Below are positions 2,212 through 8,507 of a stretch of 64,000 bases of DNA, in pieces. The translations under genes and the position numbers were made by a program. The stretch lies in assembly GCF_030013205.1 (NCBI RefSeq), contig NZ_CP122648.1; one strand, given 5' to 3'. How positions within the stretch are numbered: position 1 is the first letter of the stretch; each line of letters opens with the position of its first letter. This stretch comes from Escherichia coli. Lineage in GTDB: Bacteria; Pseudomonadota; Gammaproteobacteria; Enterobacterales; Enterobacteriaceae. The notes beneath the pieces are model-generated. The model was given only the letters and a program-made list of their open reading frames with translations, was not told the origin of the DNA and did no database searches.

Positions 2212-2300
2212 ATTAGTGTTTTTTGCTGTTTCATAATGTGCCACGTTGTTCATTATGTTTTTGATTTTTAAGTCTATTACAATTTTCATTGTTCCAGCTT

Positions 2301-2353
2301 GTTCCACGTTGTACCCCTTTGTGCAATGATCGGTGTAGTCACTGGTGTAGTCA
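2301..2353. repeat. Subterminal left repeat (gttccacgttgt ... cggtgtagtcactggtgtagtca), candidate integrase arm-type site
   Basis: Imperfect ~55-bp direct repeat of 16781..16838 near the opposite island end. Confidence 0.45.
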
Positions 2354-2391
2354 TTTTTTTTGCAAACAGGGGAGGAAATGTGAGCAGAGCA

Positions 2392-4217: not shown

Positions 4218-5018
4218 ATGAATACTGGATATACGCCTGTACAGGGGCGGGGCTTCGTTCGGCCTGAAAAACAGAATCTGCAAAATTTCGCTGAAATTAT
4301 TCCGGTTATTTCCGGCGTTATTGGTGGGCGTGAAACCACTATTGTTAGCGCCAGAGCGTTACATAAGGCGTTAGGTGTAGGGCGCGTTTTCCGTTCGTGG
4401 ATCAAGGGGCGCATTGAAGAATACGGGTTCACGGAAGGCGTGGATTATGAGGTTGTTGAATATTTGAGCCGACCCGATCCGGTGAGCGCAAAATCTCGCC
4501 AGCAAACCGCTCTTGAGTACATCATCACAGTGAACATGGCGAAAGAACTGGCGATGGTCGAACGTACCGAACAGGGCCGCGCCGTTCGCCAGTACTTTAT
4601 CAAATGCGAGGAGGAGCTACACAAGGTAGCGCCAGTGCGTTCCGCAGCGTTACGCCGGGAACTGAAAGCCCGTATCACCGTTGCCAGCTACTTTAAGCCA
4701 ATGTGTGCCGCGCTGGAGGCGTACCGGGCTGAACTGGGTAAAAACACGTTCCAGCACCACTACACCACGGAAGCCAATATGCTGGCGCGTATCGTGCTGG
4801 GTGGCATGACTGCAAAACAGTGGGCGCAGGCGAACGGCATCACAGGCGAACCACGCGACCACATGAGCACGTTGCAGCTTGAGCACCTTTCTTACCTTGA
4901 GCAGAGCAATATCACGCTGATTGAGTTAGGCCAGGGCTACCACCAGCGGAAAGCTGAATTAATTCGTCTTTCGCAGCGTTGGTTAGCCCGTCGCATGGAG
5001 GAAAACAGCCATGTGTAA
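4218..5018 (+). CDS. Phage antirepressor-like protein (266 aa)
   Basis: N-terminal ...TIVSARALHKALGVGRVFRSWIKGRIEEYGFTEGVDYEV resembles Bro-N/Rha/ORF6N-type antirepressor domains (recollection, unverified). Confidence 0.55.
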   Translation: MNTGYTPVQGRGFVRPEKQNLQNFAEIIPVISGVIGGRETTIVSARALHKALGVGRVFRSWIKGRIEEYGFTEGVDYEVVEYLSRPDPVSAKSRQQTALEYIITVNMAKELAMVERTEQGRAVRQYFIKCEEELHKVAPVRSAALRRELKARITVASYFKPMCAALEAYRAELGKNTFQHHYTTEANMLARIVLGGMTAKQWAQANGITGEPRDHMSTLQLEHLSYLEQSNITLIELGQGYHQRKAELIRLSQRWLARRMEENSHV

Positions 5019-5414
5019 CGCTCTGACCGTTACAAAAAGAGAAAGCGCCCCGTTGCCGGAGCGCCTTTGTGAACGAATAGCCTACTGCGCCATATTGCTT
5101 ACTGTCTACGAGGCAGATTATAGCGTTGTGGTCGCACAGAGTGAAGGCGCTGATCACCGTTACTACAGCACGCCAGAAATGCAGAATATTTTGCTGCAAA
5201 ATGCCGTTGGTCACGCCGTCCGGAAAGCAAAAAATTTTGCTGGTGGCGCGACTGATGCGATTTTGTCAGGTCGCCAGGTGCTGATCAATCTGATGTCTGA
5301 TTTCGTTCTGGATAAAACAAAGGCGACCGCAGAGGGTCGCCAGTGGGTATTACGGCAAATCAAACTTGAACGCATCACCAACAATGCCACATTTGCGGCT
5401 GGTGGGCAATGTGA

Positions 5415-5603
5415 TCAGTCAGATTTGGTTCGTTCCAGGGTTTGCAACGAGAGCTTTTTCCTGCGCTCTTTAAGGAATTTCTCAAGAGCAAACGAACAAG
5501 GTGCGAATCTTTCTGATTCATGCTCTATCTTTCTGCGCCGTCTTTTCCGTGTCGGTGATAATGTTTTGGTCAATTCTTTATCGGTCATTGTGTTGTCCTG
5601 CAT
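5415..5603 (-). CDS. Small basic hypothetical protein (62 aa)
   Basis: Minus-strand ORF with Arg/Lys-rich segment TRKRRRRKIEHESERF; downstream of the RHH gene on the same strand; no clear SD. Confidence 0.35.
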   Translation of the reverse strand: MQDNTMTDKELTKTLSPTRKRRRRKIEHESERFAPCSFALEKFLKERRKKLSLQTLERTKSD

Positions 5604-5645
5604 AGCAATGCGCCGTAGTTACTCACACCACGGCGCTGATAGTGA

Positions 5646-5843
5646 TTATTCTGATTCTTTGGCCTTCCGGCGCTGTTCATATTTTAATTTGCGTCCACAG
5701 GCATCTAAGACCCATGCGGAAAAATTAGCACTAGGATTAGTTAATTTTTCTTGTTCAACGCTGGCATCAATCCCATCTATAAGCTCATGTGGGAATCGAA
5801 TATTTTTCTTTGCTGATTTGTTGTTTGTGTTACCGCTAGACAT
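5646..5843 (-). CDS. Ribbon-helix-helix (CopG/Arc-like) putative repressor (65 aa)
   Basis: KKNIRFPHELIDGIDASV (beta strand) followed by NFSAWVLDACGRKL (helix) pattern; GAGG SD 7 nt upstream; start abuts the palindromic operator cluster. Confidence 0.55.
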   Translation of the reverse strand: MSSGNTNNKSAKKNIRFPHELIDGIDASVEQEKLTNPSANFSAWVLDACGRKLKYEQRRKAKESE

Positions 5844-5870
5844 TGATGCACCTCACTTAAATGGACTTTA

Positions 5871-5951
5871 TGGGCGCACACAATACAGCAAAAAAAATGA
5901 GATGTTAAGTATTGACATGTGCGCACACATGATTTTAATCTGTGCGCACAG
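5871..5951. promoter_or_regulatory. Divergent promoter/operator region with three TGTGCGCACA palindromes
   Basis: tgggcgcaca 5871-5880, tgtgcgcaca 5918-5927, ctgtgcgcacag 5940-5951; TTGACA at 5912-5917 with a 17-bp spacer and ttaatc as candidate -10, so operators sit in the spacer and just downstream. Confidence 0.5.
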
Positions 5952-6048
5952 TTTGAGTTTTGTCACTCAAATTAAGCAACGCCCCGCAGTGCTCGCAACA
6001 CATGCAGGGCGTCTAACCACCAACGATAGCAAGAGTATCGAGGTAGCT

Positions 6049-6252
6049 ATGAGAAATCATACCACACACCCGCAAGGGCGGGACTCGCACAACCTGAATA
6101 AATATATCTGGCGTTTTATCGCCCTGAGCACCGCACAACCGCGCGTGATTCACATCGTGGCCACCAGCGAACAGGAAGCACGCCAGCAATCTCCTGATGG
6201 CTGCGTGATGGTATTCGCTGCCCGTATTCGTCAGGGGGTAAGTCATGCATAA
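6049..6252 (+). CDS. Hypothetical small protein (67 aa), first gene of early operon
   Basis: Internal ATG of the long stop-free frame, preceded by GAGGTAG; 3' end overlaps the next start (ATG 6245). Confidence 0.4.
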   Translation: MRNHTTHPQGRDSHNLNKYIWRFIALSTAQPRVIHIVATSEQEARQQSPDGCVMVFAARIRQGVSHA

Positions 6253-6610
6253 CCTGTCAATTTCTGACCTTAACTGCATTCAGTTTGACGAGAAATTTAC
6301 CGGGCAGCTACTGGTCCATGTGGAGAACGGGCGCATAGTGCGTAATTACCACCTGCCGGATGGTGCAATTGCCGGAAGTGTTGAAGCATTGCTGGAACTG
6401 GCAGAGCGTGCGCGACTGATTAATCCGTCAACGTGCTATCACGATGATGATCTGCATTTTACCGGACGCATGGTGAGCCATTATGAAAACGGCGTTGAGG
6501 TATCCCGCGAACGTATGCGTGATGATTGCTGTTTCGGCACACTGCCGGAATTTATCGAGTTGCTGACCAGTTGCGGTTATCAGGTTATTCAGGGGGTGAA
6601 TTATGGATAA
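6245..6610 (+). CDS. Hypothetical protein (121 aa) with two copies of a ~50-aa repeat module
   Basis: FTGQLLVHVENGRIV...GSVEALLELAERA and FTGRMVSHYENGVEV...GTLPEFIELLTSCG within one ORF; overlaps neighbours at both ends. Confidence 0.6.
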   Translation: MHNLSISDLNCIQFDEKFTGQLLVHVENGRIVRNYHLPDGAIAGSVEALLELAERARLINPSTCYHDDDLHFTGRMVSHYENGVEVSRERMRDDCCFGTLPEFIELLTSCGYQVIQGVNYG

Positions 6611-6803
6611 TCAGCAAGCAACAATGACAATTACCCTGAGTGCGCCAGATGATTTCACCGGACGCATACTGGTTTACCTGGATAAAGGAAAAGTGAAATC
6701 ACAATGCCGACTGAAAAGTAATGAGATTGTTGGTTCTCCTGAATTTTTTTCTGAACTCTGTATTCGTGCGGAAATAAAACCGGAACTGCTGACAGGAAAA
6801 TAA
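6603..6803 (+). CDS. Hypothetical protein (66 aa), single copy of the same repeat module
   Basis: FTGRILVYLDKGKV...GSPEFFSELCIRAEI; start overlaps the previous stop. Confidence 0.6.
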   Translation: MDNQQATMTITLSAPDDFTGRILVYLDKGKVKSQCRLKSNEIVGSPEFFSELCIRAEIKPELLTGK

Positions 6804-6807
6804 AACC

Positions 6808-7098
6808 ATGAAAAAGAAAAATTCTGGCTTTACTGCCAGCGGCCTCTCTCGGCCTGAAATCCGCCCCGGTGATATTTTCCGGGACACCAGACGCGGGGGA
6901 CGGGTGGTTATTCGTCACGTTACGCCAGGCAATATCACCTACCGCCGTGAGGCTTACGAATATGACTGCGTAATGCCGCGCCGTCAGTTTGATCGTGATT
7001 TTATTCTGGTGGAAAACAAACAACTGGCAGTGGCGAGACGTGCAGCCACGAATATTAAAAAAATCCGGGCAATGTTGGTTGCGGGAGGTAAGAAGTGA
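6808..7098 (+). CDS. Hypothetical basic protein (96 aa)
   Basis: ORF with stop overlapping the GTG start of the helicase gene (GTGA at 7095-7098). Confidence 0.5.
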   Translation: MKKKNSGFTASGLSRPEIRPGDIFRDTRRGGRVVIRHVTPGNITYRREAYEYDCVMPRRQFDRDFILVENKQLAVARRAATNIKKIRAMLVAGGKK

Positions 7099-8507
7099 AA
7101 AACGCACCGAGTCTAAAATATCAGCCGAAGGATAAATTCACTGAGGTAATCATTTTTGCCGGGACGGATGCTTACGCCCATGCTCAACACTGGATTGAAA
7201 GTGAAGGACGAAAACACGGCGATAACGTGCCTCCTGTTTACCTGGGGCCAAAGCAACTGGCAGACCTGGCGAATATCCGCATTATTGACGAGAAACGCCG
7301 TTTTGCGCGTGTCTATATCGCGGGGGAGATAGAGCCAATCCAGATCAATACTATCGCTGAAAAGCTGGCGCTGGCTGGCGTACAGGAGGCGAAATTATAC
7401 AAAGGTATCACCGACCAGGAACCGGAGAACTGGCGCGACTACCTGCAACGGATCCGCGAACAGGCTGAGCGCGAAGAAATGCTTACTGACGAGCAATACA
7501 GCCAGCGAAAAACCACGCTACCAATGAGCATTGGATCGGAAGGATACGATTCACAGCTTAGCTATGTGGTTAAGGGTGTGATTCCGGCTAATTCGTTGTG
7601 CAGCACATACGGTGCGAGCGGTTCTTATAAGTCGTTCCTTGCGTGTTCGTGGGCGTGTCATGTTGCTACCGGTATCCCGTGGGGAGGTCGCAGGGTTGTA
7701 CATGGTGCGGTGATGTATGTCGTTGGTGAGGGCGGGATCGGTGTTCCTCGTCGTATCAAGGCATGGGAACTGGTGAACAGTGAGCAGGTGAAAAATCTGT
7801 ACCTGGTAAATCGTCCAATTTTTCCGGCCGCACCGAGTGATGTTGATGAAATGGTTATTGCTGCCCGACAGGTTGAGCAGGAAACGGGTAAACCTGTACG
7901 CATGATTATTCTGGATACTCTGGCGCGTTGCTTTGGTGGCAGCGATGAAAATGATGCGCGGGATATGGGGGCATTTGTCCATGGATGTGACGAACTGAAA
8001 CGGCGTACAGGCGCTACAGTGCTGGTAATTCACCATTCCGGCAAGGATGAAACAAAGGGTGCGCGCGGTTCCAGTGCGTTTCGTGCAGCACTGGATGCAG
8101 AGTACCGGATACGCCGTGAAGGTGCAGGCAGTGAAGCCCTGGTTATCGCATGTACCAAGATGAAGGATGCGGAGGAACTGAAAGAAATGGCTTGCGATTT
8201 GCGCGAGGTTGAGCTTTTCAAGGATGAAGGCGGGGAGTTAATCACGTCATTGGTGCTGGAGGATAAGCCCCGTCCGCCAGTTGAACTGGAGCGCATCGAG
8301 TACGCTGCTAACAAGACAGAGAATCACGTCGCGCTATGGGGCTGTATCCGTTCACGCACGCAACGCGGAGATAAATGCACTATCCCGTTGTTGCGCGATG
8401 ACATGAAAAAGCTGGGGTATGAGATGAAACACTTCCGGCGCTGGCTGTACAAGCTGGAAGGTGACGGCGTAATCACTATTGACGGTGATGACGTGCGCCC
8501 ACTGTAA
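7095..8507 (+). CDS. Replication helicase/primase-like protein, RecA-fold (AAA_25/RepA-like) ATPase (470 aa)
   Basis: GASGSYKSF Walker-A-like motif, MIILDTLARCFGG and LVIHHSGKDETKGARGSSAF motifs typical of RepA/DnaB-like helicases; iterons immediately downstream. Confidence 0.65.
   Translation: MKNAPSLKYQPKDKFTEVIIFAGTDAYAHAQHWIESEGRKHGDNVPPVYLGPKQLADLANIRIIDEKRRFARVYIAGEIEPIQINTIAEKLALAGVQEAKLYKGITDQEPENWRDYLQRIREQAEREEMLTDEQYSQRKTTLPMSIGSEGYDSQLSYVVKGVIPANSLCSTYGASGSYKSFLACSWACHVATGIPWGGRRVVHGAVMYVVGEGGIGVPRRIKAWELVNSEQVKNLYLVNRPIFPAAPSDVDEMVIAARQVEQETGKPVRMIILDTLARCFGGSDENDARDMGAFVHGCDELKRRTGATVLVIHHSGKDETKGARGSSAFRAALDAEYRIRREGAGSEALVIACTKMKDAEELKEMACDLREVELFKDEGGELITSLVLEDKPRPPVELERIEYAANKTENHVALWGCIRSRTQRGDKCTIPLLRDDMKKLGYEMKHFRRWLYKLEGDGVITIDGDDVRPL

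What the first reader, a model, noticed from the sequence alone, without database searches (positions are those of the whole stretch)
6245..6803. Three copies of a ~50-aa module spread over two overlapping small genes in the early operon
The 121-aa protein contains two copies and the 66-aa protein one copy of a module with the signature D-x-FTG-(Q/R)-hydrophobic-V-x(2)-(E/D)-(N/K)-G followed about 20 residues later by G-(S/T)-x-E-(A/F)-x(2)-EL. The genes are translationally coupled to the replication helicase. Repeated small proteins expressed immediately on derepression are typical of helper-phage interference or host takeover factors, and I do not recognise the family.
Basis: seen in the sequence. 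Interest (0 to 1): 0.55.

Follow-up and report, generated by a model that had tools for sequence, protein, structure and literature searches.

The report
Three antirepressor modules in a phage satellite
The two small overlapping genes really do carry three copies of one ~50-residue module, and that module belongs to the Rem/FsoA family of small prophage antirepressors, so this E. coli phage satellite probably uses them to switch off the repressors of resident prophages.

Summary
ORF121 (6245-6610) has two copies and ORF66 (6603-6803) one copy of a ~50-aa module. All three pairwise similarities beat 5000 shuffles. Each module separately matches PHROG family phrog_340 and an independent profile built from distant homologues.

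The family is recognisable. phrog_340 overlaps Pfam PF27490 'Rem' and contains two tested antirepressors. E. coli Qin Rem relieves DicA repression. Salmonella Fels-1 FsoA inactivates the Gifsy-2 repressor GtgR; I confirmed its identity from the published primers.

The genes lie in a 14.5-kb satellite inserted in yifB. Their operon runs Icd-like, ORF121, ORF66, DUF4222, RepA-type helicase. A small divergent gene and three palindromes sit upstream, and there is no LexA box. This resembles FsoA, which is also controlled by its own element's repressor.

Rem-like genes sit directly upstream of DUF4222 and the replicase in five satellites with three replicase types. This is the slot that the helper-derepression gene epsilon occupies in P4, though epsilon is not homologous.

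Best reading: trans-acting antirepressors of DicA/GtgR-type prophage repressors. Family membership is solid. The function and target are inferred. I class these as new members of a known, poorly annotated family, of moderate interest.

The parts
6245..6610 (+). ORF121: a tandem two-module Rem/FsoA-like protein. Module 1 is roughly residues 1-63 (nt 6245-6433) and module 2 roughly residues 64-121 (nt 6434-6607).
   Evidence: phrog_340 E=2.4e-29 with two stretches. The independent HMM gives two domains, 12-57 and 72-116. BLASTP against FsoA gives 4e-7 for M1 and 9e-7 for M2. dN/dS is 0.13-0.35. The AF2 model shows a beta-hairpin, short strand and helix twice, at pLDDT 64.
6603..6803 (+). ORF66: a single-module Rem/FsoA-like protein.
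   Evidence: phrog_340 E=1.6e-16. BLASTP against FsoA gives 2e-8. The AF2 model has pLDDT 88, with a hairpin at 21-37 and a helix at 46-55. AFDB matches are family members only, TM up to 0.85. dN/dS is 0.26-0.45.
6049..6252 (+). Icd-like small ORF, the first gene of the operon. It overlaps the ORF121 start by 8 nt.
   Evidence: NCBIfam NF033153 phage_ICD_like, E=3.5e-20. phrog_6196, E=8.7e-44. RefSeq annotation.
6233..6252 (+). Conserved cassette junction AGGGGGTAAGTCATGCATAA: a Shine-Dalgarno-like run followed by an overlapping stop and start.
   Evidence: The 20-nt degenerate pattern occurs only at the two gene starts in 64 kb, with 0 expected by chance.
6591..6610 (+). Second copy of the cassette junction, AGGGGGTGAATTATGGATAA, at the ORF121/ORF66 overlap.
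6808..7098 (+). DUF4222 gene, the conserved partner between the Rem-like genes and the replicase.
   Evidence: phrog_285, E=3.4e-22. RefSeq annotates it as DUF4222. PF13973 lies directly downstream of Rem-like genes in four other satellites.
7095..8507 (+). RepA-family (AAA_25) helicase. Its GTG start overlaps the DUF4222 stop (GTGA).
   Evidence: Pfam AAA_25, E=7.7e-44, residues 150-319. RefSeq annotation.
5646..5843 (-). Divergent YlcI/YnfO-family small protein. It is the putative ribbon-helix-helix repressor of the early operon.
   Evidence: NCBIfam NF041551, E=3.5e-16. phrog_949. The ribbon-helix-helix assignment is my reading of the sequence, not a tool result.
5871..5950 (.). Divergent promoter and operator region. 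It has three TGTGCGCACA-type palindromes (5871, 5918, 5941) around a TTGACA-N17/18-TAATCT-like promoter.
   Evidence: The window contains no LexA box.

Best explanation
ORF121 and ORF66 are members of the Rem/FsoA family of small prophage antirepressors (phrog_340, overlapping Pfam PF27490).

Proposed mechanism:
1. The satellite's early operon is switched on. It is controlled by the element's own divergent small repressor, not by LexA.
2. The three modules are made together with the replicase.
3. They bind short, non-cleavable DicA/GtgR/RacR-type repressors of co-resident lambdoid prophages or cryptic prophages and pull them off their operators.
4. This derepresses those prophages. For a satellite the likely benefit is induction of a potential helper, or keeping it in the lytic cycle. 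That is the role epsilon plays for P4 on P2.

The three diverged modules (about 30-35% identical where they align) would widen the range of repressors recognised. The two-module ORF121 could act as a covalent version of the antirepressor dimer.

What is shown: the repeat, family membership, the operon context and the conserved synteny. What is inferred: antirepressor activity of these particular proteins, the identity of their targets, and the benefit to the satellite.
For: Family membership:
- Each module matches phrog_340 and an independent family HMM.
- E. coli K-12 Rem (sequence) matches phrog_340 at 4.4e-21. It aligns to the family profile at hhalign probability 95%, E=3.8e-8.
- Precomputed Pfam labels give PF27490 'Rem' on close and distant relatives.

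Experimental precedent in the family:
- Rem gives 165-fold derepression of the DicA-controlled dicB promoter, and dicBF-dependent filamentation (bioRxiv 10.1101/2023.04.14.536235 = PMC10448788).
- Fels-1 FsoA is STM0898.2n. The published primers encode MNSQQMM... and ...EAGIRFEEISNVG. It matches phrog_340 at 1.1e-26 and aligns to all three modules.
- FsoA inactivates the Gifsy-2 repressor. [quoted passage not shown] This is the same regulatory logic as in the window, which has no LexA box.

Domain fusions:
- The module is the C-terminal domain of Bro-N proteins that PHROGs labels anti-repressor (P0129 carries PF02498 + PF27490; phrog_2379 and phrog_4792; AFDB hits).

Position:
- P4 has cI-ORF, epsilon (helper derepression), orf151, orf106, alpha. 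Its first two junctions (cI-ORF/epsilon and epsilon/orf151) are 8-nt overlaps, like the two junctions here.
- Rem-like genes occupy that slot in five satellites with three unrelated replicase types.

Dimer precedent:
- Gifsy repressor-antirepressor complexes behave as A2B2, which is compatible with a tandem two-module protein.

Selection:
- dN/dS is 0.13-0.45.
Against: - No experiment exists on these proteins or on any satellite copy.
- Identity to FsoA is only 29-35% over 40-57 residues. Antirepressor specificity is known to be narrow and unpredictable.
- No DicA/GtgR-type repressor was identified as a partner, either in the element or in the window. I did not survey the host genome's prophages.
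- The strict adjacency to DUF4222 and the replicase in satellites is not explained by an antirepressor role. It could point to a replication-linked function.
- Rem's action on DicA was shown genetically. Direct binding was not shown in what I read.
- The two-module structure model is weak (pLDDT 64, pTM 0.51), so the pseudo-dimer idea is untested.
- PF27490 could not be run locally. ORF121's closest database clusters mostly carry no precomputed PF27490 hit.
Confidence: 0.55

Rival explanations
1. The same family and the same biochemistry (binding a repressor), but a different target. The modules would act on the satellite's own small YlcI/YnfO-type repressor as positive feedback, or on the repressor of an incoming helper so that it cannot establish lysogeny. 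They would not induce resident prophages.
For: The genes are the first real cargo of the operon that the divergent repressor controls. The element itself has no XRE-type repressor. FsoA likewise acts on a non-cognate repressor, so targets are hard to predict.
Against: The known targets of the family, DicA and GtgR, are helix-turn-helix repressors of about 135 aa. They are not ~65-aa YlcI/YnfO-type proteins. Positive feedback would not need three diverged modules.
Confidence: 0.15
2. A replication accessory. The Rem-like proteins would work with DUF4222 and the replicase, for example as a loader or adaptor, or as a modulator of host replication proteins.
For: A Rem-like gene lies directly upstream of DUF4222 and the replicase in 5 of 5 satellites examined, whatever the replicase type. 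One relative, P0167, is fused to a primase CHC2 zinc finger. The chain of overlapping and closely abutting genes runs down to the helicase.
Against: In prophages the family is not next to replication genes. It sits in the early-left operon of Fels-1 and Klebsiella phages, in the nin region of Qin and a Serratia prophage, and beside a lysis cassette as a Bro-N fusion. In other satellites the slot holds unrelated small genes. The two tested family members are antirepressors.
Confidence: 0.12
3. One reading: helper-phage interference, anti-defence or host-takeover factors unrelated to repressor binding.
For: The genes sit in a variable array of small early genes that shuffle between satellites. 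This is typical of accessory or arms-race loci. The neighbouring gene is an Icd-like putative division inhibitor.
Against: There is no PADLOC match. The specific family match is to tested antirepressors. No toxin-like or enzymatic features are present.
Confidence: 0.1
4. Decaying or selfish cassettes with no current function in this element.
For: Many truncated and out-of-register hybrid variants exist in databases (P0033, P0039, P0045 and others). Cassette content varies between satellites.
Against: dN/dS is 0.13-0.45. Full-length forms are found across 194 complete E. coli genomes. The ribosome-binding-site and overlap junctions are conserved. Two-module relatives at 21-41% identity occur in other lineages.
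Confidence: 0.05

Closest known systems
FsoA, the antirepressor of Salmonella prophage Fels-1 (STM0898.2n; Lemire et al. 2011, PMC3121763)
   Same: It belongs to the same PHROG (phrog_340, E=1.1e-26). The core aligns without gaps to all three modules, with the FTGR...ENG hairpin and the ...F.E(L/M) helix. It sits in an early operon controlled by its own element's repressor, not by LexA, and acts in trans on another prophage's repressor.
   Different: FsoA is a single 78-aa module in a full temperate phage. Here there are three diverged modules, two of them fused in one chain, in a satellite and directly upstream of DUF4222 and the replicase. Identity is only 29-35%, and activity is untested.
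Rem of the E. coli K-12 Qin cryptic prophage (b1561; Pfam PF27490; Ragunathan & Vanderpool 2023, PMC10448788)
   Same: It matches phrog_340 at 4.4e-21. Its C-terminal 43 residues align to the module profile at hhalign probability 95%. It is an experimentally supported antirepressor of DicA.
   Different: Rem is 83 aa, with an extra N-terminal hairpin. It lies in the nin/Q region next to hokD, and its inducing signal is unknown. The window proteins are more FsoA-like.
P4 epsilon, the helper derepression protein that binds the P2 C repressor
   Same: It holds the same position in a satellite early operon: after the cI/Icd-like ORF, with an 8-nt overlap, and upstream of small ORFs and the replicase. 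The proposed role is the same, namely inactivating a non-cleavable helper repressor.
   Different: No sequence relationship was detected (hhalign probability 0.1%). Only one copy is present in P4.
GftA/GfoA/GfhA, the LexA-controlled antirepressors of Gifsy prophages
   Same: They are small (about 73 aa) and have the same overall pattern of hairpin, acidic turn and helix. Lemire et al. aligned them with FsoA. They bind dimeric repressors as A2B2.
   Different: They belong to a separate PHROG (phrog_4847) and are only marginally similar to the module profile (hhalign E=1.7e-3, probability 15%). They lie in a dinI-gftA-irsA operon behind a LexA box, whereas the window has no LexA box.
Bro-N domain 'anti-repressor' proteins (phrog_2379, phrog_4792)
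   Same: Their C-terminal domain is this module.
   Different: ORF121 and ORF66 have no Bro-N domain. A separate AntA/AntB protein is encoded upstream at 4218-5018.

Membership tests
Rem/FsoA small antirepressors (phrog_340 / Pfam PF27490) | Significant match of each module to the family profile | tested here: met
   phrog_340 gives M1 1e-19, M2 2.7e-8 and ORF66 1.6e-16. An independent HMM gives 46.9-76.3 bits. Rem and FsoA hit the same PHROG.
Rem/FsoA small antirepressors (phrog_340 / Pfam PF27490) | Passing Pfam's own PF27490 model | tested here: inconclusive
   PF27490 is absent from the local Pfam-A library. Precomputed hits exist for homologues P0022 and P0023 (78-83% identical to ORF121) and for distant relatives. 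Other relatives carry 'weak' or 'faint' marks. Most close clusters show none.
Rem/FsoA small antirepressors (phrog_340 / Pfam PF27490) | Small stand-alone protein of about 60-85 aa with one module | tested here: met
   ORF66 fits (66 aa). ORF121 departs from this with two modules in tandem, as do relatives P0101, P0104, P0105, P0108 and P0121.
Rem/FsoA small antirepressors (phrog_340 / Pfam PF27490) | Shared fold | tested here: met
   The AF2 model has a beta-hairpin and helix at pLDDT 88. Foldseek against AFDB returns only family members, TM 0.75-0.85. No solved structure exists for comparison. This compares predictions with predictions.
Rem/FsoA small antirepressors (phrog_340 / Pfam PF27490) | Binds and inactivates a DicA/GtgR-type non-cleavable repressor | not testable with these tools
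   Needs reporter, pull-down or co-folding experiments.
Rem/FsoA small antirepressors (phrog_340 / Pfam PF27490) | Expression from an SOS (LexA) promoter, as in Gifsy, or from the element's own repressed early operon, as for FsoA | tested here: met
   There is no LexA box in the window. The genes lie in an operon behind a divergent operator region, which is the FsoA-type arrangement.
P4 epsilon (helper derepression protein) | Sequence homology to epsilon | tested here: not met
   hhalign probability 0.1%.
P4 epsilon (helper derepression protein) | Position in the satellite early operon, between the cI/Icd-like ORF and the replicase, with overlapping starts | tested here: met
   The same slot is used in four further satellites.
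P1 immI-type module (c4 RNA, icd, ant) | An Icd-like ORF translationally coupled to a downstream antirepressor, plus a C4/CI-type antisense RNA | tested here: inconclusive
   The Icd-like ORF is present and overlaps ORF121. No C4/CI-like RNA was found in Rfam, even at E<=1. The P1 layout itself is from my own knowledge and was not checked here.
Bro-N / Ant antirepressors | A Bro-N or ANT domain | tested here: not met
   No Pfam hit on ORF121 or ORF66. Only relatives are fused to Bro-N.
MORN-variant / YwqK repeat proteins | Arrays of ~23-aa hairpin repeats without the helix | tested here: not met
   The large multi-stretch hits match only profile positions of about 15-45, which is the hairpin. 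The window modules have a hairpin plus a helix. I treat this as motif-level resemblance.

The most novel reading that the evidence does not exclude
Enterobacterial PICI and cfPICI-type satellites carry, in a fixed slot just upstream of DUF4222 and the replicase, shufflable arrays of Rem/FsoA antirepressor modules. With these they actively induce resident prophages that have non-cleavable DicA/GtgR/RacR-type repressors, or prevent them from establishing lysogeny. This would be a P4-epsilon-like 'wake the helper' function that arose from an unrelated protein family. Module number and tandem fusion would set the range of helpers.
Probability: 0.3. Interest if true: 0.7.

Novelty: new member of a known kind. 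Interest (0 to 1): 0.42.

Why it matters
PICI-type satellites are usually described as passive until a helper phage activates them. P4 is the classic exception, because its epsilon protein derepresses P2.

If the Rem/FsoA-like modules work as their family precedent suggests, many E. coli satellites would be able to trigger or reinforce induction of lambdoid prophages whose repressors cannot be cleaved after DNA damage. Close copies of this locus occur in 354 of 5426 complete genomes.

That would add satellites to the 'prophage crosstalk' network described for Salmonella. It would affect how prophage-borne toxins and virulence genes are mobilised in strains such as this porcine ETEC. It would also give a function to a family that the RefSeq and GenBank records examined here annotate as hypothetical.

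The practical point is that the two genes can be annotated as Rem/FsoA-family putative antirepressors rather than as an unknown family.

Tried and rejected
Searches that found nothing useful:
- Local Pfam-A on ORF121, ORF66 and P0022 gave only a chance-level SCP2 hit (E=0.17).
- NCBIfam and PADLOC gave no hits for the two proteins.
- The PDB sequence profile search gave only weak phototropin LOV matches (E=0.02 over 30 residues), which I rejected as insignificant.
- tblastn of ORF121 against the phage collection found nothing. A more consensus-like family member was needed to find Fels-1 and the Klebsiella prophages.

Ideas tested and rejected:
- Homology to P4 epsilon: negative.
- Relationship of the Icd-like ORF to the P4 'cI ORF': only E=0.053.
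- A C4/CI-type regulatory RNA upstream: none in Rfam.
- A LexA box: none.
- MORN/YwqK repeat proteins and a low-complexity 876-aa translation appeared in the exhaustive search. I rejected them as hairpin-motif or compositional matches.

Other dead ends:
- The cfPICI vB_KppS-Ant has unrelated small genes in the same slot.
- One literature search was wasted through loose settings.
- A search for 'PF27490' in papers found nothing.
- I did not survey the host genome for candidate target repressors.

Full report
**Where the finding sits**

The window matches the chromosome of porcine E. coli ETEC4079 at 100% identity. The finding lies inside a 14.5-kb integrative element. The element is bounded by an imperfect 59-nt direct repeat (2299-2357 and 16779-16837) and is inserted in yifB next to the ilv operon. 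Its gene order is:
- integrase
- AlpA-type HTH protein
- AntA/AntB protein
- a divergent YlcI/YnfO-family small gene (5646-5843, minus strand)
- the operon Icd-like (6049-6252), ORF121 (6245-6610), ORF66 (6603-6803), DUF4222 (6808-7098), RepA/AAA_25 helicase (7095-8507)
- iterons
- ProQ/FinO and PerC genes
- a protease-like gene, a transglycosylase-like gene and a weak TerS-like gene

This is the layout of an enterobacterial phage satellite of the PICI type, such as EcCIMP1 (PMC11773190).

**Checking the observation**

The three modules are significantly similar:
- BLASTP gives 8e-7 for M1/M2 and 9e-9 for M1/M3, and nothing for M2/M3.
- By Smith-Waterman score, no shuffle out of 5000 reaches the observed score for any pair, M2/M3 included.
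- Each module on its own matches PHROG family phrog_340 (1e-19, 2.7e-8, 1.6e-16).
- Each also matches an HMM that I built only from distant single-module homologues (46.9-76.3 bits).
- Database variants include in-register M1/M2 and M1/M3 hybrids (P0048, P0065). This shows that the copies recombine as homologous units.

dN/dS against three related loci is 0.13-0.45, compared with 0.11 for the helicase, so both are real genes under selection.

Two details need correcting. The written signature is approximate, because module 2 is shifted by a residue in both motifs. And the coupling to the helicase is indirect, through DUF4222.

**Identifying the family**

The local Pfam, NCBIfam and PADLOC libraries gave nothing. 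An exhaustive profile search found 121 representatives. They are mostly 60-90-aa single-module proteins with the consensus L.V.PdFTGRVlvyvENGkV.s...L.ddE.vatl..F.ELA..AGy.V, mostly from Enterobacterales where the source organism is given.

The precomputed domain labels on relatives name the family as PF27490 'Rem'. I took the E. coli K-12 rem gene from the Qin prophage. Its product hits phrog_340 at 4.4e-21 and aligns to the module profile at hhalign probability 95%.

Rem has been tested. Ectopic expression derepresses the DicA-controlled dicB promoter 165-fold and causes dicBF-dependent filamentation (PMC10448788 / bioRxiv 10.1101/2023.04.14.536235). Those authors found Rem by homology to the Salmonella antirepressors GfoA and FsoA.

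A tblastn search with a family member had already hit Fels-1 gene STM0898.2n. The primers in Table S1 of Lemire et al. 2011 encode that protein's N- and C-termini, so STM0898.2n is FsoA. FsoA matches phrog_340 at 1.1e-26. It aligns to M1, M2 and M3 at 4e-7, 9e-7 and 2e-8, with a gap-free core.

FsoA inactivates the Gifsy-2 repressor GtgR. It is controlled by the Fels-1 repressor rather than by LexA, and it has no apparent role in Fels-1's own induction (PMC3121763).

GftA of Gifsy-2 is only marginally similar.

The module also forms the C-terminal domain of Bro-N proteins that PHROGs labels anti-repressor.

**Structure**

The ORF121 model repeats the hairpin-strand-helix unit twice, but its confidence is low (pLDDT 64, pTM 0.51). 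The relative placement of the two modules is therefore unknown.

**Context and regulation**

The intergenic region between the divergent YlcI/YnfO gene and the Icd-like gene holds three TGTGCGCACA-type palindromes around a promoter-like TTGACA...TAATCT. The window contains no LexA box.

Both Rem-like genes begin at a conserved junction, AGGGGGT.A.T.ATG.ATAA. It combines a Shine-Dalgarno-like run with an overlapping stop and start, and it occurs nowhere else in the window.

In related E. coli satellites the slot between Icd-like and DUF4222 holds variable sets of small cassettes: phrog_1478, 5146, 340, 24341 and 2196. Some satellites have no Rem-like gene there at all.

Where a Rem-like gene is present, it is the last cassette, directly upstream of DUF4222 and the replicase. 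This holds in five satellites with three unrelated replicase types:
- AAA_25 RepA
- Zn_Ribbon_Prim/Toprim_3/DUF927
- D5_N/Pox_D5

In prophages the family sits elsewhere:
- the early-left operon of Fels-1 and Klebsiella phages
- the nin region next to hok in Qin and a Serratia prophage
- beside a lysis cassette, as a Bro-N fusion

P4 has the same operon logic: cI-ORF, epsilon (helper derepression), orf151, orf106, alpha. Its first two junctions are 8-nt overlaps. Epsilon is not homologous to the module.

**Mechanism proposed**

Family membership is shown. Function is inferred from the two tested relatives, the Bro-N fusions and the epsilon-like position.

I propose that once the satellite's early operon is on, the three modules bind and inactivate short, non-cleavable DicA/GtgR/RacR-type repressors of co-resident lambdoid prophages, and so derepress them. 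This would supply the satellite with a helper or keep one in lytic growth.

Three diverged modules would broaden the target range. Because Gifsy complexes are A2B2, the tandem ORF121 may be a single-chain dimer. This last point is speculative.

I put about 0.9 on family membership, about 0.55 on trans-acting antirepression and about 0.3 on helper induction as the selected role.

The rivals are:
- a target that is the satellite's own repressor or an incoming helper's repressor
- a replication accessory working with DUF4222 and the replicase, which is the one feature the antirepressor model does not explain
- generic interference or takeover
- decay

**Novelty and interest**

The module belongs to a known and experimentally supported family. 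That family is poorly annotated: the RefSeq and GenBank records examined call these proteins hypothetical.

I found no paper that places Rem/FsoA-type antirepressors in satellites. The satellite context, the three-module dosage and the tandem fusion therefore appear to be undescribed.

Close DNA copies of the locus occur in 354 of 5426 complete E. coli genomes, and 194 of them have most of the locus.

I class the finding as new members of a known kind, of moderate interest. It would be higher if helper induction by the satellite were demonstrated.

Noticed in passing
window 2299-2357 and 16779-16837: An imperfect 59-nt direct repeat (78% identity) 14,480 bp apart. It probably marks the attL/attR ends of the satellite inserted in yifB (comM). 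The yifB fragments flank the element in the RefSeq annotation.
   Followed up: partly
window 8506-8531, 8590-8603, 8674-8699: AAAAGTGGG(G/T)AG iterons immediately downstream of the RepA helicase gene. This is probably the satellite's replication origin.
   Followed up: no
window 15574-15810: A cluster of AAAAAGTGTCAAG repeats just after a 175-aa ORF (15046-15573) whose N-terminus weakly matches small terminase (phrog_57, 5.4e-7). It may be a packaging site or a regulatory site.
   Followed up: no
window 5871-5950: Three TGTGCGCACA-type palindromes (5871 with one mismatch, 5918, 5941) lie between the divergent YlcI/YnfO gene and the Icd-like gene. They overlap a TTGACA...TAATCT promoter-like site and are probably operators of the satellite's own small repressor.
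   Followed up: partly
window 6233-6252 and 6591-6610; L002 2927-3927; L015 2064-3315: Small early genes in this slot are joined by a conserved AGGGGGT.A.T.ATG.ATAA junction. It explains the recurrent M(H/I/D)N N-termini and the ...SHA/...HG C-termini. Cassette content differs between satellites (phrog_1478, 5146, 340, 24341, 2196). This suggests shuffling at the junctions.
   Followed up: partly
window 6808-7098; L010 6204-6446; L020 5303-5599; L022 556-858; L023 5368-5691: DUF4222 always lies between the Rem-like gene and the replicase, whichever of three unrelated replicase types the satellite uses. DUF4222 has no known function, and this linkage is unexplained.
   Followed up: partly
window 10944-11528 and 11593-12276: Two adjacent ORFs, annotated NUDIX hydrolase and DUF2213, match different parts of one 545-position PHROG (phrog_6216: positions 405-545 and 115-326). 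The second also weakly matches a head maturation protease. This may be a rearranged or split morphogenesis gene.
   Followed up: no
window 12955-14994: A 679-aa protein (phrog_7694) with a C-terminal lytic transglycosylase region similar to tail-injection or tape-measure transglycosylases. This is unusual cargo for a small satellite and a hint to the helper type.
   Followed up: no
window 5011-6252 (+ strand): A 413-aa open frame runs through the whole regulatory region, antisense across the YlcI/YnfO gene, into the Icd-like ORF. RefSeq annotates an Icd-like pseudogene fragment upstream. It is probably a remnant of duplicated Icd-like sequence rather than a gene.
   Followed up: no
proteins P0033, P0039, P0045, P0047 (E. 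coli relatives of ORF121): Out-of-register deletions between the two modules give 73-91-aa hybrids in several genomes. This indicates frequent intragenic recombination or decay of the tandem gene.
   Followed up: partly
ETEC4079 chromosome NZ_CP122643.1: The same genome has three places matching the ORF121-ORF66 DNA and five matching the wider operon, so several related satellites coexist in this strain.
   Followed up: no
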